The notes below the pieces were generated by a model. The model was not told the origin of the DNA and searched no databases. It saw nothing but the letters and a program-made list of their open reading frames with translations. Below are positions 7,831 to 32,000 of a DNA stretch of 32,000 bases, piece by piece (the first letter of the stretch is position 1; each line of letters opens with the position of its first letter). Where the stretch lies: contig NZ_WUUQ01000001.1 of NCBI RefSeq assembly GCF_009831105.1, positions 630,001 through 662,000 of the forward strand, written 5' to 3'. A program made the position numbers and the translations under genes. The stretch is from Copranaerobaculum intestinale (GTDB lineage Bacteria; Bacillota_I; Bacilli_A; Erysipelotrichales; Erysipelotrichaceae).

Positions 7831-7904
7831 GCCGACATAGTATAATGGTAATACAGAGCAATGGTAATGCTCAGCTCGCAGTTCAATTCTGCGTGTCGGC
7901 ACCA
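7831..7904 (+). tRNA. tRNA-Thr (anticodon GGT), CCA encoded
   Basis: Hand-folded cloverleaf. The acceptor stem is GCCGACA/TGTCGGC and the D arm is GTAT-AATGGTA-ATAC. The anticodon arm is GAGCA-ATGGTAA-TGCTC, giving anticodon GGT, and the T arm is CGCAG-TTCAATT-CTGCG. The molecule ends in a discriminator A followed by CCA. Confidence 0.85.
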
Positions 7905-19872: not shown

Positions 19873-21318
19873 ATGCTGATCAAGGATGAAGCATTACTGG
19901 AAGCGCTGCATAACTATCTTCATAAACACGAGGATGAGGAAATAACCGTGGATGACCTGGTTCAGCTGACATCGTTCAGTGCCCGTAAGGCGGATATCCA
20001 TGACTTGTCTGGCTTGGAGCATGCAATCAATTTAACCTATCTTGACTTAACCGGTAACTATATAAATTCACTGGACGTTTTATCCTCGATGGAACAGTTA
20101 TCCTATTTAAATGTATCAAAAAATCAGATACGAGAGTTATGGCCGATTAGTCAGCTGCGGGAGTTAAAGCGGCTCGATCTTTCCAACAATAATTTGTATA
20201 TGATGGATTTAACTGCCATATCACGACTGGATAATCTGGAAGAATTGAATTTAGATCGCGCCAAGATCAACAGCATTGAACCGCTTGAGGGGATGAAGCG
20301 GCTGCGGGTGCTTCATTTGGGAGTAGCTGGTCAGGCACCTAGTATTTATCCATTGGCTACCCTGCCTTCGCTGGAAGTGCTGACGATGAATCATATGTGG
20401 ATGTATGATATCAATGATCTTACGTATCTTAGCAATTTAAAGCATCTGGAGCTTTCGACCAATTTATTCAGTGATCTTTCGCCGTTAAAAACGATGAAGC
20501 ATCTTCAGGTACTGGATTTATCAAATAATGAATATCTGCGTGATGTCAGTGTGCTTAGCGAATTGACTGAGCTGAAGGACTTGAATCTTTCCTACGATCC
20601 GGTTGATGATTTCGGATTTTTGAAAGATTTGGATCAGCTGAGCGCACTTCGCCTGGCCCAGACTGGTCTTCGTGATGTTTCGGTTCTGGAACACCTGTTG
20701 CATTTGGAAAAATTGGATTTGTCTGATAATCATATTCATCATATAGAAAGATTATCCGATTTACGAGAATTGATTTATTTCAAAGCCAGCAACTGTCAGC
20801 TTCATACGATAGATTTTCTGAAGCATGCGGGGAAGCTGGAAGAGCTCAGCCTTTATAATAATATGATCAAAGATATCGATATTTTGAATCATTGCAATGG
20901 TTTGACCACGCTTGATGTCAGTAATAACAATATCCGCCGTATTGACGCGTTGAAAGAGCAGTACAATCTGGAGTGTCTGCTGCTTGCCAATAACAGTATC
21001 CGCGATATAGAACCATTGAAAAACCTGACCAATCTTGGCGTTCTCGACCTGTATAATAATGTCGTGGAGGATTTGCATCCATTATCAAACTTAGTGAACT
21101 TGATTCGATTGCGTCTGGATCATAACAGTATTATTGACTTACAGCCGCTGGATAAGCTTATCTATTTGAGCAGTCTGTCTTTGAAAGCGAATTATATCAT
21201 TGATGTCTCGCCATTAAAGAAGCTCACGTCGCTGTATGAGCTGCGTTTAGATGATAATCCGATCATGGATATCAGTGTTCTGGAGGATCTGGAATATTAC
21301 GATAAATTTAGCAGCTAA
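19873..21318 (+). CDS. leucine-rich repeat protein (~19 tandem 22-aa LRRs), no signal peptide
   Basis: A regular LxxLxxLxLxxNxIxDIxxL periodicity runs through the protein. The N-terminus is acidic and hydrophilic, and I see no LPXTG or cell-wall anchor. Confidence 0.85.
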   Translation: MLIKDEALLEALHNYLHKHEDEEITVDDLVQLTSFSARKADIHDLSGLEHAINLTYLDLTGNYINSLDVLSSMEQLSYLNVSKNQIRELWPISQLRELKRLDLSNNNLYMMDLTAISRLDNLEELNLDRAKINSIEPLEGMKRLRVLHLGVAGQAPSIYPLATLPSLEVLTMNHMWMYDINDLTYLSNLKHLELSTNLFSDLSPLKTMKHLQVLDLSNNEYLRDVSVLSELTELKDLNLSYDPVDDFGFLKDLDQLSALRLAQTGLRDVSVLEHLLHLEKLDLSDNHIHHIERLSDLRELIYFKASNCQLHTIDFLKHAGKLEELSLYNNMIKDIDILNHCNGLTTLDVSNNNIRRIDALKEQYNLECLLLANNSIRDIEPLKNLTNLGVLDLYNNVVEDLHPLSNLVNLIRLRLDHNSIIDLQPLDKLIYLSSLSLKANYIIDVSPLKKLTSLYELRLDDNPIMDISVLEDLEYYDKFSS

Positions 21319-21674: not shown

Positions 21675-23078
21675 ATGAAATTTAATAAATTAGACATTAT
21701 CGAGCCTTTATTAAGGGCTGTGAAAGAACAAGGCTATGAAGATGCGACGCCTATTCAGGAAAAGGCAATTCCTCAAGCACTTCAAGGAAAAGATATTTTA
21801 GGTTGTGCACAAACCGGAACCGGGAAAACCGCGGCTTTTTCAATTCCTACGATTCAGCAGCTGTATCAGGCAGGAAAGCGGGATTATATCCGCGCATTAA
21901 TCTTAACCCCCACTCGAGAACTGGCAATTCAGATTCAGGAAAATATGTGCGCGTATGCAAAGTATACCGAAATTAAGAGTGCGGTCATTTTTGGCGGCGT
22001 TTCACAGAAACCACAGGAACGAGCAATCCAAAATGGTGTGGATATCGTAATTGCGACACCGGGACGTTTGAATGATTTAATAAAACAAAGCATTATTGAT
22101 TTATCACATATCGAAATTTTTATATTAGATGAAGCCGATCGGATGTTAGATATGGGTTTTTTGAACGATGTAAAGAAAATTATCGCCCAAATTCCTGTAA
22201 AAAAGCAAACTTTATTTTTCAGTGCAACGATGCCGAAGGAAATTCGCACCCTTGTACATACGCTTCTTGTTGATCCGGTTAGTGTGGAAGTCACACCTGT
22301 TTCCAGCACGGCAAAGCAAATTGATCAAACCCTATATTATGTAGATAAAGCGAACAAGAAGCATTTATTGTTGGATATTCTGGAACATAATGATGTCCAG
22401 AATGCCCTTATCTTTACCAGAACGAAGCACAATGCGAATCGGTTAGGAAAGTTTTTAATCAACCACAATATAAAAGCCGGGGTGATCCATGGTAATAAGT
22501 CACAGAATGCCCGTCAAATTGCCTTAACCCAATTTAAAGAGGGTAAAATCAGAATATTGGTCGCAACGGATATTGCTGCAAGGGGCATTGATGTCAGTGA
22601 ATTAAGCCATGTTTTTAATTACGACATGCCGAATGAGGCAGAAGCATATGTGCATCGCATCGGAAGAACCGGGCGGGCAGGAAAGACCGGCACTTCTATT
22701 TCCTTCAGTGATATCGATGAAATCGATTATGTGAAAAGTATTCAGAAATTAATTGACTGTGATATCCCAGTGAACCGCGAACATGCTTATCCGATGCTTG
22801 TGACAACACCTACTCCAAAGAAAAAACAGGGGCAAGGTAGAAATACCAGTCCAAAACAGGGGAAACAGTCTAATAAATCAAAGAATTCAAAATCATCAGA
22901 TACTGGTGTTACAAAAAAATCCTATAACAATAATAAGCAGACTCCATCAAAATCTAAGCAATTTGGTAAGGATACAAAAGCAAATGACAGCAAAAAACGT
23001 GATAGCTCATCGCATGCTTATCAAGATAAAAAACGAAATTCCGCAAGCTCCTCAATTTATGCAATGCGAGGCAAGTAA
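21675..23078 (+). CDS. cshA: DEAD-box ATP-dependent RNA helicase with a basic Ser/Lys-rich tail
   Basis: Q-motif region, AQTGTGKTAAF (motif I), DEAD, SAT, and HRIGRTGRAG (motif VI). The C-terminal ~90 aa are low-complexity K/S/N-rich. Confidence 0.9.
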   Translation: MKFNKLDIIEPLLRAVKEQGYEDATPIQEKAIPQALQGKDILGCAQTGTGKTAAFSIPTIQQLYQAGKRDYIRALILTPTRELAIQIQENMCAYAKYTEIKSAVIFGGVSQKPQERAIQNGVDIVIATPGRLNDLIKQSIIDLSHIEIFILDEADRMLDMGFLNDVKKIIAQIPVKKQTLFFSATMPKEIRTLVHTLLVDPVSVEVTPVSSTAKQIDQTLYYVDKANKKHLLLDILEHNDVQNALIFTRTKHNANRLGKFLINHNIKAGVIHGNKSQNARQIALTQFKEGKIRILVATDIAARGIDVSELSHVFNYDMPNEAEAYVHRIGRTGRAGKTGTSISFSDIDEIDYVKSIQKLIDCDIPVNREHAYPMLVTTPTPKKKQGQGRNTSPKQGKQSNKSKNSKSSDTGVTKKSYNNNKQTPSKSKQFGKDTKANDSKKRDSSSHAYQDKKRNSASSSIYAMRGK

Positions 23079-23120
23079 TCGGATGAACATGTTTCTCTGG
23101 TTCTAAAATAATATAATAAA

Positions 23121-23156
23121 AATGTATCATACTTCTATAAGTAGATACATTTTTTG
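23121..23156 (+). terminator. rho-independent terminator after the helicase gene
   Basis: AATGTATC / GATACATT stem followed by TTTTT. It coincides with the compositional switch to AT-rich DNA. Confidence 0.7.
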
Positions 23157-23293
23157 TATTCCTCTATCTAATATTTTCAGAATATCGTAAAAGTAGCCGA
23201 ATTCATTGATTATTTTGTAACAGTTCCTTATTTTGATCCAAGCATAATCATCTTGTATTGATTCTTTTTTCTACAAAAAAGGTAACTACCTAA

Positions 23294-24274
23294 TTATTTT
23301 GAAGCGTATTTCTTTAAATTACATTTTAGGATATCAATGAATTCTTCTCTCACGTCAGCTGGTTCAATAATTGTGCAATAGTTCATATATTGTAAAGCAA
23401 AATACAGCATTCCTTGTTTAGAGGATTTGATAATTGCTAAGAATTCTTTATCGTTCTTTTTCTGAATATATATATCCTGACCAAAACGATCAATCATGTC
23501 ATCTAATATGAAATGATCGCAAAGTATCGTGAACGTTTCTACATTACCGCCATACATATATATTTTGGTTTTACAATATTCGTAAGGGTTGAAATCTTTT
23601 TCTATCGGTCTTATCGGCAGTGCGGTAATGATTATGTTTTTCATTTTATCAATCCGATAATGACTTAAATTTGTATAATCATCTTTTTGACAAAGCAGAT
23701 AATAATTTTCATTTGCATAAACAATATGATAAGGATGAACGATGTATTTTTTATCTTTTCTGGGAATCATTTTCTTATTATAATCATATTTCATATAGTC
23801 AAACGATATTGCTTTATTTTGTTGGACTGCTTCCAGTATCACTTCGATGTTAAGGAAGAAATCGTGATTTAAAGATTTGTTTGAATTTTTTAAATATATG
23901 TTTGGATAAAAGGATTGATATACATATTTGCTTTGGGTATGAAGCAACTTCTGTATTAACTGTTTCGATTCTGTTTCAGGGATGAAATGGGAAGAATATA
24001 TGGCATTGCACAGTAAATGTATTTCTGATTTTTCGAATGATCTTTCACCAAGAAAAAAACGCAGTGCGGTACCATTTGAGTTATCATCCCTTGATTGTAT
24101 ATCCACACCAGCTTCAATAAGGGCGTCTATATAAGAAGTAAATGTGTGTCTTTCAATTTGGATGTCATATTGAGTTTCTAAGAGTTTTTGAATTTCACGA
24201 CGAGTGAGCGGGTGTTCCTCATCGGAAAATGTCTTTAATATTTGATAAATATGAAATAGTATTGTTTTCTTCAT
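23294..24274 (-). CDS. WYL-domain transcriptional regulator (wHTH - WYL - WCX architecture)
   Basis: N-terminal winged HTH (IYQILKTFSDEEHPLTRREIQKLL...YIDALIEAGVDI). Central WYL-like core (KYIVHPYHIVYANENYYLLCQKDDYTNLSHYRIDKM). C-terminal extension domain. The 326-aa length fits the BrxR/CapW/PafBC-type family. Confidence 0.75.
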   Translation of the reverse strand: MKKTILFHIYQILKTFSDEEHPLTRREIQKLLETQYDIQIERHTFTSYIDALIEAGVDIQSRDDNSNGTALRFFLGERSFEKSEIHLLCNAIYSSHFIPETESKQLIQKLLHTQSKYVYQSFYPNIYLKNSNKSLNHDFFLNIEVILEAVQQNKAISFDYMKYDYNKKMIPRKDKKYIVHPYHIVYANENYYLLCQKDDYTNLSHYRIDKMKNIIITALPIRPIEKDFNPYEYCKTKIYMYGGNVETFTILCDHFILDDMIDRFGQDIYIQKKNDKEFLAIIKSSKQGMLYFALQYMNYCTIIEPADVREEFIDILKCNLKKYASK

Positions 24275-24386
24275 CTTGATCCCTCTTTTGCTTTCATTCT
24301 ATCATAAATAAATTTACAAATTTTGAAAACCTGGTTGGATTTTCTACCATACTGCTATTTTATAATGATAACGCGAGGTGATAGAG

Positions 24387-24851
24387 ATGACGGATTGGCT
24401 TATTACAAAAAATCATATCGTTCATTATTGTGATTGTCCATACGTGACGAGCGGTATGAAATGTACAAATTTATGGATTGCGTTAGAACAAGGCAATCGA
24501 ATTTGTAAACATTGCTTACATAAGTATTTAAGCTGTGAATGTGATCAAATCTTCCAAACTTTTCATGGAATCATCAAAAATGTTTATTGGGAATATAATT
24601 ATTTATTTTTTGGAACAGCTTACTCCTACTGGTGTCTCAATTTGGTGGACTTTAAATTGTGGCATACACGTAACTTGGATTATCCGGCGCCCTTTTCTGA
24701 TAATTTTCATTTTCAAAAAGAATGTATATCGCTTTATGATGCTGTTTCTTATGGAGTTGAACATGATAAACATCATCCATATGTTTCTAAAAAACCTTTT
24801 GGCAATTTTTCTGTTTATCAGAAAATTATGATAATAGAGGCACAGCTGTAA
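24387..24851 (+). CDS. hypothetical Cys/His-rich protein with an N-terminal zinc-ribbon-like motif (154 aa)
   Basis: A GAGGTG RBS lies 6 nt before the ATG at 24387. The N-terminus, HIVHYCDCPYV...(22 aa)...NRICKHCLHKY, resembles Ada-like H/C-x-C...CxxC metal-binding modules. I do not recognise the aromatic-rich C-terminal half. Confidence 0.55.
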   Translation: MTDWLITKNHIVHYCDCPYVTSGMKCTNLWIALEQGNRICKHCLHKYLSCECDQIFQTFHGIIKNVYWEYNYLFFGTAYSYWCLNLVDFKLWHTRNLDYPAPFSDNFHFQKECISLYDAVSYGVEHDKHHPYVSKKPFGNFSVYQKIMIIEAQL

Positions 24852-24899
24852 TTGGTATTTCACGAATAATTATTGGAAGAAATGGAGGGAGCTGAAACG

Positions 24900-25187
24900 A
24901 TGAGATTGATAACGATAACAGGTATTGAACATTATTTTGGACAGGAAATTTTTCGGCCAGGTCAAACTTTAATATTGAAAAAAGATCTTGATAATTCTTA
25001 TGACAGCGAGGCAATTCAAGCGGAATTAGAAACCGGTGTAAAGGTTGGATACGTTGCTAATAGTATTCATACCGTAGCAAGGGGATCGCATAGTGCTGGA
25101 CGTATTTATGAAATTATAAATGACCGGCAGCCTGTAAAAATATTATGTATTTTATATAACTGTGTTATAGCAGAATTAGATTTATAA
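24900..25187 (+). CDS. stand-alone HIRAN-domain protein (95 aa)
   Basis: ITGIEHYFGQEIFRPGQTLILKKDLDNSYDSEAIQAEL..GVKVGYVANS follows the HIRAN consensus (GxxxYxG...G..l.L.rep.N.yD.nAi.v....g..iGYv). The GGAGGGA RBS sits 9 nt before the ATG at 24900; the track start at 24873 is a TTG. Confidence 0.65.
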   Translation: MRLITITGIEHYFGQEIFRPGQTLILKKDLDNSYDSEAIQAELETGVKVGYVANSIHTVARGSHSAGRIYEIINDRQPVKILCILYNCVIAELDL

Positions 25188-25252
25188 AAAATGTGAAAGA
25201 AAAGATACATATTATGATACAATACTAAGTGTAAACGGTTACATTTTTGGGG

Positions 25253-25281
25253 TTGACAGGGTCTGGGGAATTTGTTAATAT
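25253..25281 (+). promoter_or_regulatory. strong sigma-70 promoter driving tracrRNA (and probably cas9)
   Basis: Consensus TTGACA (25253-25258), an exact 17-nt spacer, then TGTTAATAT (extended -10, with the -10 at 25276-25281). Confidence 0.7.
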
Positions 25282-25287
25282 GGTTTT

Positions 25288-25406
25288 GCAAGAGATATCT
25301 TGCTATAAGTACAAATTCATTTTGCAAGACTTTCTATCAGAGTTTCTCTCGTAGAGAGTAACTGCAAGAAAAAGCCCTAATAGGTAACTATAGGGCTTTT
25401 TCTTTT
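25288..25406 (+). ncRNA. tracrRNA: tracrRNA
   Basis: The anti-repeat at 25303-25338 matches the reverse complement of the CRISPR repeat at 31 of 36 positions, and two of the five differences are G:U-compatible. Downstream come a CTCTC-GTA-GAGAG hairpin and a terminator (AGCCCTA...TAGGGCT plus T-run, 25371-25406). The 5' end is inferred from the promoter, not measured. Confidence 0.8.
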
Positions 25407-25423
25407 ATAGGAGGAACGTACAT

Positions 25424-28400
25424 ATGAAAAAAGAAAATTACATTATGGGACTAGATTTGGGAGTTGGATCGGTTGGCTGGAGCTGCATGGCAGTAAATGA
25501 TAATCATGAGCCGTGCCGTTTGATTGCCGCAAACAGTAGAATTTTTCCATCGAAAAACGGAAGCATGGAAGAACGCAGAAACGCACGGGGATTAAGAAGA
25601 TTGATTCGCCGTAAAAAAGCCCGCATCAAAAAAGTAAAAAATTTATTTGTGGAATATGATTTCTTTACAAAAGAGCAGATCAATGAATTTTTTGATTTTG
25701 AAGCAAAAAATTATGAAAATCCTTATCGCTTGAAATGTCGTGGACTCACTTCAGCTTTAACAAAGGAAGAATTATTGATCTGTTTGGTTCATTATGCAAA
25801 ATATCGTGGCTTTAGGAGTAATCGAAAGAATAAGGAAGTAGCTAAGGATACCAAAAGTGCGAGTGAAGAACAGAAATTATTATATTCTATTGAACAAACA
25901 CAAACTTTTTTGGATGAAAATAATTGTACTATTTCTCAATATATTTTAAGTGATCCAAAATTTAAAGATAAGATCAAAAATACAAGTGGCAATTTCAAAA
26001 TTGGTGTGACCAGAAAAATGATCACCGATGAAGCAGAGCAGGTATTGGATACCCAGATTACATGTGGATTAATTGATGATTCTTTCAAAAAATCTTATTT
26101 AGATATATTAACATATCAGCGTTCCTTTTCAGAAGGACCTGAATCCGGTCCCTATAGCAATCCAATAGTTCATATGATTGGTACCTGTTCATTTGATAAA
26201 CAATTGCGAGCACCGATAGCAGCACCTACCTATGAAGTATTCATACTGCTTCAAAAGCTCACAAATATTTACTACTATAAAGATTCATATCGAGATAAAA
26301 AGCAGCTGTCTGTAGAACAAATACAGGCAATTGTGGAGAAGGCGAAGAAAACAAAAGAAATTAAGTATAAACATGTGATGGAAATTATCGGTGAGGATGT
26401 TCATTTTACGGGTTTAACATTAAGCCGAAAGGATTATGCGGAAATCAATAAGAAAGGTAAAAAGCATCCTGAACGCAATCTTGACGATTTGCGAAAGAAA
26501 CAAAAACTAGAAACTTCAATATGTAAAATGGAGATAACATCTTATTTTAAAAATGCGTTTAAGAAAGTCCATCGGATTGATGATTTAAAGCTTTTGGATG
26601 AAATAGCAGACTTGCTTTCAAAATATAAAACGGATAAGGAAATAGAAAAGTACTTAGATCATGATGATTATCCATTGTTGAGACAACAAGACGAGGATAT
26701 CAAGGGTGTAGTGAAAGGTCTTGATGAGGGAAAGTTCATACGATTCGGTAAGTTATCTTTCCATGTTTTGTATGAAATTGTTCCTTTGATGTTGGAAAAA
26801 GGATATATGTATTCGGATGCTATGAGAGAAGCAGGCTTTGATCACGTGAATAAAAAAAGCGATGATAAGGTACATGATCAGCTTCCATCAGTTTCAGATA
26901 TTTTTGACGATTTAGATATGAGCGTAACAAATCGTTGTGTGCGTACGACCTTGCAGGAAACCAAGAATCTTATCAATGCGTTAATTCGTAAATATGGAAA
27001 ACCGGAAGAAATCCATGTTGAAGTAGCTCGCGAACTCACAAAAGATGAAAATGAAAGAGCGAAAATCATGGATTCACAAATATCGAATAAAGTAGAAAAA
27101 ATCAACTTAAAACGACAAATTTTAAGCAAGTTTGATTGTTTTTATTCAGAAGATCAAATCAAACATAATGATCTGTTGAAGTATAAACTTTTTATTGAGC
27201 AGAAAGGTATTGATCCCTATATGCTGGCTTATACAAATGATGAGAATGTATCAAAAATACATGAAAAGGATATTTTTGATAATGATGCTTATGAAATTGA
27301 TCATATTTTGCCTTATTCAATGTGTTTCAATGATCTTTATTCTAATAAAGTATTGGTATCGACAAAAATGAACCGTGAAAAAGGAAATCGGATTCCGTAT
27401 GAAGCATTTCATGCCCGTCCGGGATTTTTGAAATTTCAAAGTTGGGTGTATAAGAATATTCATGATGCACGCAAGCGAGAAAATTATCTAACAAAGAAAG
27501 TAACAGAAGAAATGTTAGAAGAGTTTAGTGCGAGGGCATTAAACGATACCCGGTATGCTACAAAAGTTCTTTGCAAAATTATTTCTTATTATTTTTCTGA
27601 TGTGAAGGTGAGAAGCTTCACCGGACAAGTTACATCAAAATTAAAAGGAATATGGCATTTGAATACTCTTACTCACTCTTATCAAAGTGGAGATCTTTTA
27701 CGTCATGATAAACGAGACGAGAAGTTGGATCAGCTGTATAAGCGTATGGATGATGAAATGGATATTATCAAGCAAAAGGAAATCAAAAGTAAGATTATCT
27801 CAATGGAAAAAGATATAGAGAAAAAAGATCGAAGCAATCATTTGCACCATGCACTTGATGCGACGATCATCGCCTGCGCAACCGATACTTTAAGAAGACG
27901 AATTGAGATGCATGAAATGTATATTCGTCAAAGAACGCTGAATATACAGCGATATCGCATACCGGTTATTGAAGAAAAGACCGGAGAATTGAAAGAATAT
28001 CGTTATGAAGAAAAGGCAACACAAGATTTAAGCGATTATTTTGATATTACTAAGAATATGAATTATCGCCAATTTCCGGTACCTTATGCTAATTTTGTTG
28101 AAGAAATTAAACTGAGAATTTATGAACGAGATGAGGAAGTGCTGAGAAAATCACTCTGTACTTTCCCAAATTACACAAAAGAACAAATTGAAAAAGTTAA
28201 GCCATTGATGATTTCTCATAAAATTATTAAAAAACAAAATAGCAGATTACATGAAGCTACCATTATGGGGGTGAGAAAGAATCCTGAAAATCAACAAGAA
28301 ATTGTATTAACAAAACGTATTAGCATTGATAAAGATAGCTTTAAGCTTGATAGTGTAGAAAAAATATATGATTCTAAAGGTACACAAAAAGCGATATATG

Positions 28401-28996
28401 ATGCAGTTAAGGTGTGGCTAGCTGGTTACGATAATGGTTCAAAGGCGTACACTGCTCATCAGGGATATCCAATTGCACCCAATGGACATGAGATTAAAAA
28501 AGTGAAAATAAATTTAGAAGATGTGAAAGAAAGAATCTGTATACATCCTGAGAAAAAACAATATGTGGATAAAGATGATGTAATCCAGGTATATGTTTAT
28601 AAGCGTAAAGATGATGATCGATTATATTTTGCTGGAATGGATCAGTATCGTTTAATGAACTTGGATAAAAATCCGATGATAATGTTGTGGTATGGACAAG
28701 ATAAAAACTTTAAATATGTGCTTTACAATGATCTTGAAAAAGAAGGTTACATACCTTATTTAAAATTAAACCGGAATCAACTCATTCGGATAACCCTACA
28801 GTCAGGAGTAGAAGGAATATGTTTAGCAGGAGGAACTTCATCTGGAATGTTTGAAGTATATAGCATTTTAGGCGATGGTTTGGATTTACTTGCATCAGGA
28901 ATCCAAAGACAGGTTAAAACCCGATATCAAATAACAGTGTCCACAATCAAAGATATCCAAATTCTTCACTCTAATATTTTAGGAGAAATATTTTAA
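25424..28996 (+). CDS. cas9: Cas9 (type II-A, 1190 aa)
   Basis: RuvC-I IMGLDLGVGSVGWS, Arg-rich bridge helix RRNARGLRRLIRRKKARI, HNH YEIDHILPYS...NKVLV...N..KGNRIPYE, and RuvC-III NHLHHALDATIIAC. AGGAGG RBS at 25409-25414. Confidence 0.95.
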   Translation: MKKENYIMGLDLGVGSVGWSCMAVNDNHEPCRLIAANSRIFPSKNGSMEERRNARGLRRLIRRKKARIKKVKNLFVEYDFFTKEQINEFFDFEAKNYENPYRLKCRGLTSALTKEELLICLVHYAKYRGFRSNRKNKEVAKDTKSASEEQKLLYSIEQTQTFLDENNCTISQYILSDPKFKDKIKNTSGNFKIGVTRKMITDEAEQVLDTQITCGLIDDSFKKSYLDILTYQRSFSEGPESGPYSNPIVHMIGTCSFDKQLRAPIAAPTYEVFILLQKLTNIYYYKDSYRDKKQLSVEQIQAIVEKAKKTKEIKYKHVMEIIGEDVHFTGLTLSRKDYAEINKKGKKHPERNLDDLRKKQKLETSICKMEITSYFKNAFKKVHRIDDLKLLDEIADLLSKYKTDKEIEKYLDHDDYPLLRQQDEDIKGVVKGLDEGKFIRFGKLSFHVLYEIVPLMLEKGYMYSDAMREAGFDHVNKKSDDKVHDQLPSVSDIFDDLDMSVTNRCVRTTLQETKNLINALIRKYGKPEEIHVEVARELTKDENERAKIMDSQISNKVEKINLKRQILSKFDCFYSEDQIKHNDLLKYKLFIEQKGIDPYMLAYTNDENVSKIHEKDIFDNDAYEIDHILPYSMCFNDLYSNKVLVSTKMNREKGNRIPYEAFHARPGFLKFQSWVYKNIHDARKRENYLTKKVTEEMLEEFSARALNDTRYATKVLCKIISYYFSDVKVRSFTGQVTSKLKGIWHLNTLTHSYQSGDLLRHDKRDEKLDQLYKRMDDEMDIIKQKEIKSKIISMEKDIEKKDRSNHLHHALDATIIACATDTLRRRIEMHEMYIRQRTLNIQRYRIPVIEEKTGELKEYRYEEKATQDLSDYFDITKNMNYRQFPVPYANFVEEIKLRIYERDEEVLRKSLCTFPNYTKEQIEKVKPLMISHKIIKKQNSRLHEATIMGVRKNPENQQEIVLTKRISIDKDSFKLDSVEKIYDSKGTQKAIYDAVKVWLAGYDNGSKAYTAHQGYPIAPNGHEIKKVKINLEDVKERICIHPEKKQYVDKDDVIQVYVYKRKDDDRLYFAGMDQYRLMNLDKNPMIMLWYGQDKNFKYVLYNDLEKEGYIPYLKLNRNQLIRITLQSGVEGICLAGGTSSGMFEVYSILGDGLDLLASGIQRQVKTRYQITVSTIKDIQILHSNILGEIF

Positions 28997-29910
28997 TGGG
29001 TTATCGACAAATATATATTCGGAAAGCGAATAAACTGGCTGTAAAACATCATTCTTTAATAATACTAAATGATACTCAAGAATTAGATATTCCGTTAGAA
29101 GACATAGCAAGCATTTTATTGGAAGATCAGCGGACGGTTATCACTTCTCGATTACTTTCTGCTTTATCGGAAAACTATATAACTTTCATTATTTGCAATG
29201 AGCGTTATCAACCTTCGTCCATATCAATGCCAATATACATGCATTACCGACAATTGAAAGTATTTTATCAACAAATGGAAGTTAAAAAACCTTTATTATC
29301 CCAGATATGGGCAGGTATTGTAAAAGCTAAAATTATGAATCAGATAAACATCCTGGAATTGAATAAGTGCAGTGATGAAAAAATACAGAAATTAAAAACC
29401 GAAGTAAAACAAATTCAATCTGGTGATAAAACAAATCGAGAAGCTGTTTGTGCAAAACTATTTTTTAATGCTCTTTATGGTTCGTTTTTTATAAGGGATC
29501 ATACCGGAGATGATGGCATCAATATGGCGCTGAATTATGGATATACGATCATCGCCGCGCAAATTACCCGGGTTTTGACCATGTATGGTTTTCATACCAT
29601 GCTAGGTATTCATCACTGTTCACAACAAAATAATTTCAATCTTAGTTATGATTTTGTAGAACCTTTCCGGGCGATCATAGATAAATATGTATATGATCAT
29701 AAGGATGAGCTTGATTCCTCACTGGCGATCCAAACAAGAAAAGATTTGATAGCCTTGCTTCAAGAAAGTGTGATCATAAATGATAAACGTTTTTCTGTTC
29801 AAAACGCGATTGAAGAAATGGTTTTAAGCTATATAAAATGTTTAGATAATAATGATTCCTCTTATTTTGTAACACCTATATTACTTTATGAATCAGGAAG
29901 CAATTTCTAG
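28996..29910 (+). CDS. cas1: Cas1 (type II)
   Basis: Collinear with S. pyogenes Cas1 (...NREAVCAKLFFNALYG..., LNYGYTIIAAQ..., FNLSYDFVEPFRAIIDK). The start overlaps the cas9 stop (TAATG). Confidence 0.93.
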   Translation: MGYRQIYIRKANKLAVKHHSLIILNDTQELDIPLEDIASILLEDQRTVITSRLLSALSENYITFIICNERYQPSSISMPIYMHYRQLKVFYQQMEVKKPLLSQIWAGIVKAKIMNQINILELNKCSDEKIQKLKTEVKQIQSGDKTNREAVCAKLFFNALYGSFFIRDHTGDDGINMALNYGYTIIAAQITRVLTMYGFHTMLGIHHCSQQNNFNLSYDFVEPFRAIIDKYVYDHKDELDSSLAIQTRKDLIALLQESVIINDKRFSVQNAIEEMVLSYIKCLDNNDSSYFVTPILLYESGSNF

Positions 29911-30232
29911 TTTTCGAATCATGCGTTTGATTGTATTGTTTGATTTGCCTATGCAGACAAATAGTGAAAAAAGAGAATATCAACATTATCGTAAATTTTT
30001 ATTAGAAGATGGATTTCAAATGCTTCAGTTTTCTGTTTATATAAGATTCTGTAAAAATATACAAGATGCTTCAAAACACACAGCAAGAGTGAGTGCGTTA
30101 ACTCCAAAGAAAGGAAATATCAGAATATTAAGTATTACGGAAAAGCAATTTGAAGATATGATACTTGTGCTCGGTGAGAAAATTCCAAGCGAGTATATTG
30201 TCAATGAACAATACACAATGGTGATAGAATGA
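29888..30232 (+). CDS. cas2: Cas2 (type II)
   Basis: SSFRIMRLIVLFDLP...REYQHYRKFLLEDGFQMLQFSVY...KKGNIRILSITEKQF closely parallels S. pyogenes Cas2. It overlaps the cas1 end by 23 nt. An alternative ATG at 29921 would remove the conserved SFRIM residues. Confidence 0.9.
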   Translation: MNQEAISSFRIMRLIVLFDLPMQTNSEKREYQHYRKFLLEDGFQMLQFSVYIRFCKNIQDASKHTARVSALTPKKGNIRILSITEKQFEDMILVLGEKIPSEYIVNEQYTMVIE

Positions 30233-31107
30233 AAATCTTATGTAATTATAATGAACGTATAAAAGAAATGTATTTCGAGAAGATCGTCTTTTTCCATGGT
30301 AATCACAACAACTTGAATACCTTATATCAAACTGTTTTAAATGGATTAAACGGACAAGATAAGAGTTTCCTTTTAAATAATCAAATAATCGAGAAAAAGG
30401 AACTTAATGTTATTGAATTTGATAATAATGGAATTATAGATGATTTGAAGTTTACAGCAAAGAGTTACTTTAGTAAATTAATGCAGATACAGATAAATAC
30501 TGATGAACTTGAAGAAATAAAAGACGAATATGATTTAATCAATGTGAAATTGGCAAATTTAGTAGCGCATTCTTTCTGTAATTTGCATAGCAAATATATG
30601 TTCATAAACCCTCATTTATCTAATTTTTGTATAGAAAAATATATTCAAGACAGTTTTAGTTTTGTAAACAAAGAGGAAATTGATTTTGCCACGAATACTG
30701 AATTACAATTATGTATCGTATTAGAATTCATTAATAGCCATCCTGAAACATTCTATCATGTTTTAATTAAAGATTTAGATCGTAATTTGGATTTATCTCA
30801 GATTCTTTATATTATAGAGATCATGAAGACTGTATCCAATGCTTCATTTTATATATTTTTACGATGCTTTGAATTATATGAAGCATATCATAATTTTGAA
30901 CAATATTTAGTCCTGGAGAATACTGTTTTGCATCGTGTTGAGGAAGAACAGAATTGTATATATAGCCCACTATTAACGCCAAAAGAAAATGAGTATTATA
31001 GTAAAGCTATGACGTATTTAAAACACAAAAAATTGTATGATGAAAGTACTTCTAAGCATCCTGAAATTTTTAAAAGTGACATAATTGATGTAATATTACG
31101 TGAATAA
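30229..31107 (+). CDS. csn2: Csn2-position protein (292 aa), divergent Csn2-like
   Basis: It is the fourth gene of a cas9-cas1-cas2 operon, lies immediately before the array, and is ATGA-coupled to cas2. It shows only loose pattern similarity to known Csn2 sequences, so the assignment rests mainly on position. Confidence 0.6.
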   Translation: MKILCNYNERIKEMYFEKIVFFHGNHNNLNTLYQTVLNGLNGQDKSFLLNNQIIEKKELNVIEFDNNGIIDDLKFTAKSYFSKLMQIQINTDELEEIKDEYDLINVKLANLVAHSFCNLHSKYMFINPHLSNFCIEKYIQDSFSFVNKEEIDFATNTELQLCIVLEFINSHPETFYHVLIKDLDRNLDLSQILYIIEIMKTVSNASFYIFLRCFELYEAYHNFEQYLVLENTVLHRVEEEQNCIYSPLLTPKENEYYSKAMTYLKHKKLYDESTSKHPEIFKSDIIDVILRE

Positions 31108-31146
31108 TGTATGAATTCCTATAAAATATATATTAAATAACTAGCG

Positions 31147-31172
31147 AAAGCCCTGTTACAATGGGCTTTTTT
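31147..31172 (+). terminator. rho-independent terminator after the cas operon
   Basis: AAAGCCC - 9-nt loop - GGGCTTT followed by a T-run. Confidence 0.7.
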
Positions 31173-31192
31173 ACTTATATATATTGATATCT

Positions 31193-31822
31193 AATAGAGA
31201 ATCTTGTAAAATGAATTTGTACTTATACATTATGATTTTGAGGATAATAATGGGAAGCAATAGAGAATCTTGTAAAATGAATTTGTACTTATACCTGTGC
31301 AGAAGGTGGTAGCTGCTGGACAAGAATAGAGAATCTTGTAAAATGAATTTGTACTTATACCCTTTCACCTTCTATGGCTCTATGCAGATAAATAGAGAAT
31401 CTTGTAAAATGAATTTGTACTTATACCAGCGCTTATTATCCTCGTAAGTGGTAATGAAATAGAGAATCTTGTAAAATGAATTTGTACTTATACCATTGAG
31501 CGTTATCGGCACTACTGTAACATAATAGAGAATCTTGTAAAATGAATTTGTACTTATACAGCGCTATCAGCTGGTGTGCCTGCAACAAAATAGAGAATCT
31601 TGTAAAATGAATTTGTACTTATACTTTTCAATATATCTTGATATTGTAATTCTAAATAGAGAATCTTGTAAAATGAATTTGTACTTATACCAGCGCTTAT
31701 TATCCTCGTAAGTGGTAATGAAATAGAGAATCTTGTAAAATGAATTTGTACTTATACACAAAGACACCATCTTTGTTGATCTCAACAATAGAGAATCTTG
31801 TAAAAAGTTACAGAAATATATC
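31193..31822 (+). CRISPR. type II-A CRISPR array: 10 repeats (the last degenerate) and 9 spacers
   Basis: The 36-nt repeat AATAGAGAATCTTGTAAAATGAATTTGTACTTATAC starts at 31193, 31259, 31325, 31391, 31458, 31524, 31589, 31655 and 31722. A tenth copy at 31787 keeps only the first 19 nt. Spacers are 29-31 nt. The transcribed strand is inferred as + from the tracrRNA anti-repeat strand and from the degenerate repeat being cas-distal. Confidence 0.95.
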
Positions 31823-31922
31823 TATATTTGAAAGTACATTTAAAAAATTTGAATTTTACTGTTCATCGAAAATCTACAAATTAAAAAGATTGTCTTATAT
31901 GATTAGGACAATTTTCTTTTAA

Positions 31923-32000
31923 TTACATCATCAATTCCTTACATTCTTCCAAGGTTTCCTTAAAGAATGTGAATGCATCATCATAAACTTGATCATTGCG
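31923..32000 (-). CDS. 3' end of an unidentified minus-strand gene running off the window
   Basis: An open frame, ...RNDQVYDDAFTFFKETLEECKELMM*, ends at a TAA (31923-31925). A hairpin plus T-run at about 31887-31920 could serve as its terminator. Only 25 codons are visible. Confidence 0.25.
   Translation of the reverse strand, partial: RNDQVYDDAFTFFKETLEECKELMM

What the first reader, a model, noticed from the sequence alone, without database searches (positions are those of the whole stretch)
23294..25187. Uncharacterised three-gene module (WYL regulator <-> Cys-rich Zn-ribbon-like protein + stand-alone HIRAN protein) directly upstream of tracrRNA-cas9
Seen in the sequence:
- The first three genes of the AT-rich island are a 326-aa wHTH-WYL regulator on the minus strand and a divergent two-gene operon on the plus strand.
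- The operon encodes a 154-aa protein with an H-x-C-x-C...C-x-x-C motif and an unrecognisable aromatic-rich C-terminal half, followed 48 nt later by a 95-aa protein matching the HIRAN consensus.
- Both small genes have good RBSs, share the ~30% GC of the cas genes, and point into the tracrRNA/cas9 unit. Only a weak hairpin (25229-25247) lies in between.

Established knowledge:
- WYL regulators (BrxR, CapW, PafBC, DriD) control defence or DNA-damage regulons, and some are activated by ssDNA.
- A WYL protein modulates Cas13d.
- HIRAN domains (HLTF/Rad5) bind 3'-OH ssDNA ends.
- I know of no type II CRISPR accessory or defence system built from a HIRAN protein plus this Cys-rich protein.

Inference, three alternatives:
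- A DNA-end or ssDNA-sensing accessory/regulatory module for the type II-A system, for example coupling damage or invader-DNA fragments to cas9/tracrRNA expression or to adaptation.
- An independent, WYL-controlled mini defence system sharing a defence island with CRISPR.
- Mobile-element cargo.
Basis: partly seen in the sequence, partly recalled or inferred. Interest (0 to 1): 0.78.

Follow-up and report, generated by a model that had tools for sequence, protein, structure and literature searches.

The report
WYL–HIRAN gene pair beside swappable Cas9
A DNA-damage-type (WYL) regulator and a small DNA-end-binding (HIRAN) protein form a gene pair found in many Firmicutes; here the pair has gained an orphan gene and borders an exchangeable CRISPR-Cas9 cassette, so it neighbours CRISPR and may switch it on, but is not a dedicated three-gene CRISPR accessory.

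Summary
All three ORFs are real genes under purifying selection, and the WYL and HIRAN assignments hold. HIRAN is confirmed by Pfam, by PDB profile and by an AlphaFold model with pLDDT 94.7 whose best matches are HLTF HIRAN. The WYL protein is closest to the ssDNA-activated activators DriD and PafBC.

The block is not a three-gene module. The Cys-rich protein is an orphan, with one 77% orthologue among 1.84 billion representative proteins. The conserved unit is WYL plus HIRAN. The two genes are adjacent in 45 of 92 HIRAN-anchored loci, in two layouts, across Erysipelotrichales, Gemella, Oscillospiraceae and Lachnospiraceae, mostly without CRISPR. A pseudo-palindrome sits 9-12 nt upstream of the -10 box of the HIRAN promoter, where a -35 box would lie.

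Compared with a sister genome, about 80% DNA homology stops exactly at the HIRAN stop codon. Beyond it the type II cassette is non-orthologous (Cas9 24% identical). A conspecific pair of Massilicoli sequences differs by presence or absence of the cassette. Type II CRISPR follows WYL-HIRAN in 4 of 14 divergent-layout lineages and Wadjet in one.

Best reading: an ssDNA-responsive WYL switch driving a 3'-end-binding HIRAN protein, with defence cassettes as facultative downstream cargo. New variant of a known kind; moderate interest.

The parts
23294..24274 (-). wHTH-WYL-WCX transcription factor, 326 aa
   Evidence: Pfam WYL 5.8e-11 and PADLOC WYL 8.5e-23. A family profile hits DriD at 1.5e-13 and PafBC at 4.7e-11 across the WYL and WCX regions. 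It is 85% identical to the L001 orthologue, dN/dS 0.05.
24275..24386 (.). Divergent control region holding the promoters of the WYL gene and of the Cys-rich/HIRAN operon
   Evidence: -10 TATAAT at 24361-24366, ribosome-binding site GAGGTG at 24375-24380. A minus-strand promoter-like site lies at 24329->24301. The blocks holding the two candidate operators are conserved in L001.
24313..24330 (+). Candidate operator site 1 (TTTACAAATTTTGAAAAC), overlapping the -35 of the predicted WYL promoter
   Evidence: The unbiased Gibbs motif search chose this site in the window. It occurs once in the window. Function is inferred.
24333..24349 (+). Candidate operator site 2 (GGTTGGATTTTCTACCA), 11 nt upstream of the -10 box
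   Evidence: It has the same position as the family element GGyrCA-W5-7-TGnAC, which lies 9-12 nt upstream of the -10 in 11 of 15 lineages. It is identical in L001 and occurs once in the window. Function is inferred.
24387..24851 (+). Orphan Cys/His-rich 154-aa protein: possible Zn-binding N-terminus, aromatic-rich C-terminus
   Evidence: Only a 99% and a 77% relative exist among 5.8 billion and 1.84 billion proteins. dN/dS is 0.076. No Pfam, PADLOC, NCBIfam or PDB hit. AF2 pLDDT is 36.7.
24900..25187 (+). Stand-alone HIRAN protein, 95 aa, predicted to bind 3'-OH ssDNA ends
   Evidence: Pfam, PDB profile, AF2 and Foldseek all agree. D35, N32 and Y34 correspond to HLTF D94, N91 and Y93 (PMC5773155). 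The family has at least 7,769 clusters of stand-alone proteins.
25188..25188 (.). Junction between the conserved backbone and the swappable CRISPR-Cas cassette
   Evidence: blastn homology to L001 (about 80%) runs 23307-25188 and ends at the HIRAN stop. Downstream, Cas9 is 24%, Cas1 35% and Cas2 40% identical.
25253..25404 (+). Neighbour, not part of the module: tracrRNA unit with promoter 25253-25281, anti-repeat about 25305-25338 and terminator hairpin 25366-25404
   Evidence: Promoter scan gives TTGACA-17-TAATAT with TG. Fold energy is -46.4 kcal/mol, z = -6.9. The anti-repeat is complementary to the 36-nt repeat.
25424..31107 (+). Neighbour: cas9 (1190 aa), cas1, cas2 and a 292-aa Csn2-position gene, followed by the CRISPR array from about 31193
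   Evidence: NCBIfam Cas9 5.1e-161. ORFs. Nine 36-nt repeats.

Best explanation
The block is a chromosomal two-gene unit that has gained one lineage-specific gene.

Shown:
1. A wHTH-WYL-WCX transcription factor is transcribed divergently from a short operon. The conserved member of that operon is a stand-alone HIRAN protein.
2. The same WYL-HIRAN pairing recurs across Firmicutes.
3. The HIRAN promoter has a good -10 box. Where the -35 box should be, it carries a pseudo-palindromic element.
4. The cas cassette downstream is exchangeable.

Inferred mechanism:
- The WYL dimer binds that element. Like its closest solved relatives DriD and PafBC, it is switched by single-stranded DNA produced by DNA damage, stalled replication or processing of foreign DNA.
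- It then turns on the operon, most likely as an activator that substitutes for the missing -35 contact.
- The HIRAN protein keeps the 3'-OH-recognising Asp and the stacking aromatic of HLTF. It binds free 3' ends of ssDNA or of regressed forks. It could protect or mark those ends. It could also compete with WYL for the ssDNA signal and so shut the response off.
- The orphan Cys-rich protein is an extra regulon member of unknown activity.
- The type II CRISPR-Cas locus is cargo in a variable slot just downstream. It may receive read-through transcription: into tracrRNA in this window, and straight into cas9 in L001. That would couple cas expression loosely to the same signal, but it is not what the pair exists for.
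For: Real genes and domain assignments.

Cys-rich gene is an orphan.

WYL and HIRAN are linked.
- They are adjacent (330 bp or less) in 45 of 92 HIRAN-anchored loci, in a divergent and a co-directional layout.
- From the WYL side, most of the closest WYL homologues (41% identity or more) have a divergent HIRAN: 12 of the 15 assessable loci. More distant homologues do not.

Contexts are mostly housekeeping:
- purC (SAICAR synthetase) in Oscillospiraceae.
- ileS and secA in Gemella.
- EF-Tu/EF-G and a GH31 glycosidase.

The module belongs to the backbone.
- Homology with L001 ends at the HIRAN stop, and dS matches the flanking genes.
- L027 and L118, 99% identical in DNA, differ by presence or absence of the CRISPR cassette, starting 60 nt before cas9.

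The closest solved relatives are the ssDNA-activated DriD (1.5e-13) and PafBC (4.7e-11). No BrxR or CapW hit appears at E <= 1.
- DriD ssDNA contacts Y192, W206 and Y240 are kept as Y, Y/F and Y/F/H (PMC9186387).

Shared promoter element: information content 9.9 bits against 6.85 +/- 0.26 for shuffles. It ends 9-12 nt upstream of the -10 in 11 of 15 lineages. The geometry resembles the DriD site that overlaps -35 (PMC13004042) and the PafBC -26 element (PMC11804915).

The HIRAN 3'-OH pocket residues are invariant (PMC5773155).
Against: - No expression or binding data exist. Activator versus repressor is inferred from geometry only, and a repressor could equally sit over the -35 position.
- DriD contacts K202, R204 and R288 are not conserved here, so ssDNA as the ligand is unproven. 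Another WYL factor senses c-di-GMP (PMC11880434, abstract only).
- The cross-lineage position weight matrix is too weak to find sites by scanning, and the window's own sites are not top-scoring.
- Adjacency to DNA-targeting defence (4 CRISPR, 1 Wadjet in 14 divergent lineages, against 0 cas in 15 WYL-less HIRAN loci) exceeds what a pure housekeeping damage module predicts.
- Half of the HIRAN loci have no adjacent WYL gene.
Confidence: 0.45

Rival explanations
1. Dedicated defence-island regulator. WYL, with HIRAN as a co-sensor of invader DNA ends, exists to control the defence cassette downstream (type II CRISPR-Cas, Wadjet), as BrxR does for BREX and CapW for CBASS. Infection or damage would then raise cas9/tracrRNA expression.
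For: - Type II cassettes lie directly downstream and co-oriented in four lineages with two unrelated Cas9 types.
- Wadjet jetA starts 59 nt after HIRAN in Traorella.
- In L001 the gap from HIRAN to cas9 is 95 nt with no hairpin.
- In the window there is no terminator before the tracrRNA promoter.
- WYL and Cas9 pairwise identities give discordant groupings. This hints that cassettes were exchanged yet kept landing beside the pair.
- More distant members of the same WYL family sit beside GmrSD and PD-(D/E)XK genes.
- The best PADLOC hit is the cas-associated WYL model.
- CapW-type repressors sense ssDNA (PMC11662680, abstract).
Against: - Most WYL-HIRAN pairs have no defence gene nearby.
- The cassette is swapped or absent while the pair persists.
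- In the window a strong tracrRNA terminator lies 20 nt before cas9.
- No second copy of either operator candidate lies near tracrRNA or cas9.
- Enrichment over WYL-less HIRAN loci is weak (4/14 against 0/15, one-sided Fisher about 0.04, my arithmetic) and is not phylogenetically independent.
Confidence: 0.25
2. Independent mini defence or stress system. WYL acts as switch, HIRAN as sensor of foreign or damaged DNA ends, and a variable neighbouring gene as effector. The effector would be the Cys-rich protein here, a MazF-like protein, NERD, a PedC-like protein or ARPP elsewhere.
For: - The gene next to HIRAN varies between lineages.
- The recurrent 229-374-aa partner has weak MazF/PemK similarity.
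- HIRAN occurs in the predicted HipA-HIRAN candidate system PDC-M03 (PMC11706625).
- ARPP-HIRAN and ARPP-WYL pairs have been noted in conflict systems (PMC9503650).
Against: - Several lineages have only WYL and HIRAN between housekeeping genes, with no candidate effector.
- None of the variable partners hits a PADLOC model.
- The MazF similarity is below threshold (E about 0.04).
- The Cys-rich protein has no recognisable catalytic domain.
Confidence: 0.15
3. Mobile-element cargo or an anti-CRISPR/Aca-type locus that happens to lie beside cas9.
For: - G+C is lower than in the flanking core genes.
- Small proteins sit next to an HTH-type regulator beside cas9.
Against: - The block is syntenic with backbone genes, and its dS equals that of the flanks.
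- No integrase lies nearby, and the only tRNA is at 7831.
- The HIRAN family is found in 2 of 50,697 phage records and 13 of 2.9 million viral contigs.
- The Cys-rich protein has no phage homologue.
Confidence: 0.03

Closest known systems
DriD (Caulobacter crescentus), ssDNA-activated WYL transcription activator
   Same: - It is the best solved-structure match to the family profile (1.5e-13 across WYL and WCX).
- It has the same homodimer-type wHTH-linker-WYL-WCX architecture and a similar length.
- Three ssDNA-contact positions are retained.
- Its operator overlaps the -35 position of its target promoters (PMC13004042).
   Different: - Identity is low and the N-terminal half does not align.
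- K202, R204 and R288 are not conserved.
- DriD targets didA and repair genes, not a HIRAN gene.
- The hosts are Firmicutes, not Alphaproteobacteria.
PafBC (mycobacteria), ssDNA-activated WYL regulator acting by sigma adaptation
   Same: - Its WYL domain hits at 4.7e-11.
- Its regulated promoters lack a -35 box and carry a specific element just upstream of the -10, the '-26' motif (PMC11804915). The geometry is similar here.
   Different: PafBC is a heterodimer, or a fusion of two WYL proteins, and controls a large regulon. Here there is one 326-aa protein whose only evident target is its neighbour.
BrxR / CapW, WYL repressors of BREX, CBASS and other defence operons
   Same: - The wHTH-WYL-WCX architecture is the same.
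- They sit at the 5' edge of defence operons.
- CapW senses ssDNA (PMC11662680).
- More distant homologues of this WYL protein sit next to GmrSD and PD-(D/E)XK genes.
   Different: - No BrxR or CapW structure is hit at E <= 1.
- Most WYL-HIRAN pairs are not next to defence genes.
- No HIRAN partner is known for BrxR or CapW (my knowledge).
HLTF/Rad5 HIRAN domain and the stand-alone bacterial HIRAN protein lp_0118 (PDB 3K2Y)
   Same: - The fold matches (Foldseek probability 1.0, TM 0.61-0.70).
- The N-x-Y-D motif is kept. HLTF D94 recognises the 3'-OH and Y93 stacks a base (PMC5773155); these correspond to invariant D35 and Y34 here.
   Different: - The protein is a 95-aa stand-alone domain with no helicase or RING partner.
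- HLTF Y72 is His here, and R71 is not conserved.
- No function is known for any bacterial stand-alone HIRAN protein. PMC11090510 calls them uncharacterised.
PDC-M03 / HipA-HIRAN ('HipI') candidate system
   Same: The HIRAN protein gives weak hits to PADLOC PDC-M03B models (about 2e-5).
   Different: No HipA kinase lies in the window or in any of the loci examined. The hit reflects the shared domain only (PMC11706625).

Membership tests
WYL-domain transcription factors (wHTH-WYL-WCX) | WYL (Sm-like) domain | tested here: met
   Pfam PF13280 at 42.7 bits against a cutoff of 21.8. PADLOC WYL 8.5e-23. The YYL motif at 191-193 aligns with DriD N-Y192-L.
WYL-domain transcription factors (wHTH-WYL-WCX) | C-terminal WCX dimerisation domain | tested here: met
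   The profile alignment to DriD runs through its WCX domain to profile position 321. Pfam WCX (PF25583) is on record for co-family members next to HIRAN.
WYL-domain transcription factors (wHTH-WYL-WCX) | N-terminal winged HTH DNA-binding domain | tested here: inconclusive
   No Pfam HTH hit reaches threshold. There is only a weak winged-helix-like FokI_D3 hit (0.0041). PADLOC full-length WYL model PDLC01457 covers residues 9-307. The N-terminal 100 residues are conserved across the family.
ssDNA-sensing WYL regulators (DriD/PafBC/CapW type) | Conservation of ssDNA-contacting residues | tested here: inconclusive
   DriD Y192, W206 and Y240 are kept as Y, Y/F and Y/F/H. K202, R204 and R288 are not kept, and Y168, S172 and R178 lie outside the aligned stretch (PMC9186387).
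ssDNA-sensing WYL regulators (DriD/PafBC/CapW type) | ssDNA binding that changes promoter activity | not testable with these tools
   This needs EMSA or fluorescence polarisation with purified protein, plus reporter assays.
HIRAN domain | HIRAN fold and sequence signature | tested here: met
   Pfam hit above cutoff. PDB profile hits. AF2 pLDDT 94.7, with the top 16 Foldseek hits all HIRAN.
HIRAN domain | 3'-OH pocket residues (HLTF D94, Y93, N91, Y72) | tested here: met
   D35 and N32 are invariant in 26 sequences. Y34 is the consensus residue. Y72 is replaced by His (PMC5773155).
BrxR/CapW defence-operon repressors | Detectable sequence relationship to BrxR or CapW | tested here: not met
   The family profile finds no BrxR or CapW chain in the PDB at E <= 1, while DriD and PafBC are found.
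BrxR/CapW defence-operon repressors | Consistent position at the head of a defence operon | tested here: not met
   Only 5 of 14 divergent-layout lineages have a defence cassette downstream. The co-directional lineages have none that is recognised.
PDC-M03 (HipA + HIRAN) | Adjacent HipA-family kinase | tested here: not met
   No HipA lies in the window or in the related loci.
Type II CRISPR-Cas core or accessory genes | Co-inheritance with the cas cassette | tested here: not met
   The cassette has been swapped and shows presence/absence variation, while the module is retained.
Ada-type Zn-binding domain (Cys-rich protein N-terminus) | Significant profile similarity to the Ada N-terminal domain | tested here: inconclusive
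   hhalign pairs ALEQGNRICKHC with Ada EALAAGFRPCKRC, but probability is 2.3%. No Pfam hit at E <= 10.
Anti-CRISPR / Aca locus | Location in a phage or mobile element, and homologues in phages | tested here: not met
   Backbone synteny. HIRAN in 2 of 50,697 phage records; the Cys-rich protein in none.

The most novel reading that the evidence does not exclude
WYL-HIRAN is a widespread, undescribed two-protein sensor-switch for free ssDNA or 3' DNA ends in Firmicutes. DNA-targeting defence cassettes (type II CRISPR-Cas of at least two unrelated kinds, and Wadjet) have repeatedly been captured directly downstream of its promoter. Cas9 and tracrRNA expression in these bacteria would then be induced by DNA damage or invader DNA. 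HIRAN would act as a co-sensor or feedback partner of the WYL regulator.
Probability: 0.25. Interest if true: 0.7.

Novelty: new variant of a known kind. Interest (0 to 1): 0.5.

Why it matters
WYL regulators have become established as bacterial ssDNA sensors for damage responses and for defence control. Stand-alone bacterial HIRAN proteins are a large family (at least 7,769 clusters) with no assigned function.

A conserved WYL-HIRAN pair with a shared promoter element gives that family its first concrete, testable context: a regulator, a cis element and a likely signal. If read-through into tracrRNA or cas9 is real, it would be a natural damage- or infection-responsive control of type II CRISPR-Cas, for which few native regulators are known.

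The exact break at the HIRAN stop codon also marks a hotspot where whole type II cassettes are exchanged.

Tried and rejected
- **AlphaFold of the Cys-rich protein.** With only 3 sequences in the alignment, pLDDT was 36.7. The model is unusable, so no fold search was run on it.
- **Ada-type Zn finger.** This was recalled from memory. hhalign aligns the expected motif but with probability 2.3%. I do not claim it.
- **P0072.** It was the only other hit in the exhaustive search. It is a repetitive junk ORF.
- **Rfam on 23000-32000.** No match at E <= 0.1.
- **Terminator scan.** It found none. It missed the tracrRNA terminator because the loop exceeds 8 nt; folding shows the hairpin.
- **Inverted-repeat search of the intergenic regions.** No shared operator emerged.
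- **First Gibbs run.** It found only the -10 box and ribosome-binding site. Anchoring on the -10 was needed.
- **Position-weight-matrix scan of the window and loci.** It was not discriminating, and no extra site appeared at tracrRNA or cas9.
- **PADLOC, NCBIfam and Pfam on variable partner genes.** These included the cl29 family (my label for the recurrent partner ORF next to HIRAN), NERD, the PedC-like protein and a 248-aa protein. No defence assignment resulted.
- **The PLD protein upstream of Bacillus HIRAN genes.** It hits DrmC models, but its size (474 aa, two PLD domains) fits cardiolipin synthase (my knowledge), so I did not count it as defence.
- **Anti-CRISPR and mobile-cargo readings.** Rejected on synteny and phage rarity.
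Full report
**1. Observation.**
- The WYL gene is 23294-24274 (-), 326 aa.
- The Cys/His-rich gene is 24387-24851 (+), 154 aa, with a GAGGTG ribosome-binding site.
- After a 48-nt gap comes the HIRAN gene, 24900-25187 (+), 95 aa, with a GGAGGG ribosome-binding site.
- G+C drops to 0.29-0.33 from about 23.1 kb.
- The sequence between the HIRAN stop and the next promoter has no significant structure (z = -0.5).

Downstream lies a complete type II locus.
- A tracrRNA unit has a promoter at 25253-25281, an anti-repeat at about 25305-25338, and a strong terminator hairpin at 25366-25404. The fold has z = -6.9.
- cas9 (NCBIfam 5e-161), cas1, cas2 and a 292-aa gene follow.
- A 36-nt-repeat array comes last.

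**2. Domain assignments.**
- WYL: Pfam 5.8e-11 and PADLOC 'cas-associated WYL' 8.5e-23.
- A profile of 16 HIRAN-linked WYL proteins hits the solved structures of DriD (1.5e-13) and PafBC (4.7e-11). Both are ssDNA-activated activators. No BrxR or CapW structure is hit at E <= 1.
- HIRAN: Pfam hit above its cutoff. The profile hits lp_0118 and HLTF HIRAN.
- The AlphaFold model has pLDDT 94.7, and its top 16 Foldseek PDB matches are all HIRAN.
- HLTF D94 reads the 3'-OH, and Y93 stacks the terminal base (PMC5773155). Together with N91, they correspond to invariant D35, Y34 and invariant N32.

**3. The Cys-rich protein is an orphan.**
- The word-indexed search of 5.8 billion proteins found only a 99% and a 77% relative.
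- The exhaustive search of 1.84 billion representatives found the same 77% relative.
- The only other hit in the exhaustive search is a repetitive junk ORF.
- It is nevertheless a real gene. dN/dS against the orthologue is 0.076, and the other two frames hold 8-15 stops.
- No family or PDB match exists.
- AlphaFold failed, with pLDDT 36.7.
- The H-x-C-x-C motif is not conserved.
- A resemblance of the N-terminus to the Ada zinc site is not significant.

**4. The conserved unit is WYL plus HIRAN.**

A scan of 185,579 species genomes with the HIRAN profile found 283 relatives, of which 80 loci were fetched. With my own ORF calling and HMMs, a WYL gene lies within 330 bp of HIRAN in 45 of 92 loci. 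Two layouts occur.
- Divergent: Erysipelotrichales such as Longicatena, Traorella, Dielma, Massilicoli and Solobacterium.
- Co-directional, HIRAN then WYL: Gemella, Oscillospiraceae and Sellimonas.

Starting instead from WYL, most of the closest homologues (41% identity or more) carry a divergent HIRAN: 12 of the 15 assessable loci. Homologues at 34-39% identity do not. Those sit by GmrSD, PD-(D/E)XK genes or ICE-like genes.

The HIRAN family itself is very large, at least 7,769 clusters. Its best 120 members are all stand-alone proteins of 94-172 aa, with no fusions. It is almost absent from phages: 2 of 50,697 records and 13 of 2.9 million viral contigs.

I found no paper describing a WYL-HIRAN pair. 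The nearest statements are ARPP-HIRAN and ARPP-WYL pairs (PMC9503650) and HipA-HIRAN (PMC11706625).

**5. Relationship to CRISPR.**

*The sister genome L001.*
- DNA homology of about 80% runs through the flanking genes and the three-gene block. It ends at 25188, the HIRAN stop.
- Protein identities up to that point are LRR protein 95%, DEAD helicase 79%, WYL 85%, Cys-rich 77% and HIRAN 91%.
- Beyond it, Cas9 is 24%, Cas1 35% and Cas2 40% identical. A different type II cassette occupies the same slot.

*Other lineages.*
- The roughly 1,090-aa Cas9 type of L001 also follows WYL-HIRAN in Massilicoli timonensis (L027) and in a gut-metagenome lineage (L108-110, L114).
- Sequences 99% identical to L027 lack the cassette from 60 nt before cas9. 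They carry ParE and MNT toxin-antitoxin genes and housekeeping genes there instead.
- In Traorella the pair is followed after 59 nt by a Wadjet type II operon.
- Elsewhere the neighbours are housekeeping genes or small unknowns.

*PADLOC comparison.*
- cas genes occur in 4 of 14 divergent-layout lineages.
- They occur in 0 of 15 HIRAN loci that lack WYL.
- This gives a one-sided Fisher p of about 0.04 (my arithmetic). The lineages are related, so the number of independent events is between one and three.

**6. Promoter.** When the upstream regions are aligned on their -10 boxes, a pseudo-palindrome appears: GGyrCA, then 5-7 A/T, then TGnAC.
- It ends 9-12 nt upstream of TATAAT in 11 of 15 lineages, in both layouts.
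- An unbiased sampler gives 9.9 bits, against 6.85 +/- 0.26 for shuffled sequences.
- The element occupies the place of a -35 box. DriD's site overlaps -35 (PMC13004042), and PafBC uses a -26 element (PMC11804915).
- In the window there are two candidates, both conserved in L001: 24313-24330, and 24333-24349, which lies 11 nt before the -10 box.
- The cross-lineage matrix is too degenerate for scanning. Neither window site recurs near tracrRNA or cas9.

**7. Interpretation.**

The evidence fits an autonomous, chromosomally inherited, WYL-controlled HIRAN operon that responds to ssDNA. This lineage has added an orphan gene to it, and a variable defence slot lies directly downstream.

Coupling to CRISPR can only occur by read-through.
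- It is plausible in L001, where the gap is 95 nt with no hairpin.
- In the window it could reach into tracrRNA, but the strong tracrRNA terminator then insulates cas9.

The ligand, the direction of regulation and the role of HIRAN are inferred, not shown.

I rate the WYL-HIRAN pairing as a new variant of a known kind (WYL-regulated, ssDNA-linked units), of moderate interest.

Noticed in passing
window 25188 onward; L001 10810 onward: Whole type II CRISPR-Cas cassettes differ between two closely related genomes, with the left junction exactly at the HIRAN stop codon. Cas9 is 1190 aa in one and 1087 aa in the other, 24% identical. L188 shows that the right flank of the window-type locus is a peptidase M3 gene.
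   Followed up: partly
window 25366-25424: The tracrRNA is co-directional with cas9. Its strong terminator hairpin ends only about 20 nt before the cas9 start codon, and no separate cas9 promoter is evident. cas9 expression may therefore depend on terminator read-through.
   Followed up: partly
window 31389-31493 and 31653-31757: A 105-nt stretch of the CRISPR array, with one whole spacer and part of its neighbours, is duplicated exactly within the array.
   Followed up: no
window 30229-31107; L001 15484-16347: The gene in the Csn2 position (292 aa here, 287 aa in L001) has no Pfam, NCBIfam or PADLOC Csn2 hit. The two are essentially unrelated to each other. It may be a divergent or novel fourth adaptation gene.
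   Followed up: partly
window 19873-21318: The leucine-rich-repeat protein is 95% identical to its L001 orthologue (dS 0.95), while its neighbours are 77-91% identical (dS 1.3-1.9). This suggests stronger constraint or more recent exchange.
   Followed up: no
L027 8290-8979; L015 8320-9378; L024 8309-9346; L017: A recurrent 229-374-aa gene I labelled cl29 lies directly after HIRAN in four lineages, with overlapping stop and start codons in L027. It shows weak, sub-threshold similarity to MazF/PemK toxins (PDB E = 0.04; Pfam 0.046).
   Followed up: partly
L031-L053 (Gemella), e.g. L035 7977-11260: In Gemella a HIRAN-WYL-NERD three-gene cluster (NERD-domain protein of 632 aa) is inserted between ileS and secA.
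   Followed up: partly
L014 8353-9846: In Traorella massiliensis the Wadjet jetA (DUF2397) downstream of HIRAN is split into two ORFs of 200 and 291 aa. This could be a frameshift or a pseudogene.
   Followed up: no
L081 7610-8282: Two tandem HIRAN genes of 121 and 100 aa follow one divergent WYL gene.
   Followed up: no
L157 6981-8720; L126 6981-8222; L145 4791-5981: WYL homologues at 34-39% identity that lack HIRAN sit beside GmrSD type IV restriction genes, PD-(D/E)XK nucleases, and sigma70_r4/DUF6076 genes that look ICE-like.
   Followed up: partly
L084 4114-5531: In one locus a HIRAN gene is followed by an ARPP-1 gene. This matches the ARPP-HIRAN pair noted by Iyer et al. 2022 (PMC9503650).
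   Followed up: no
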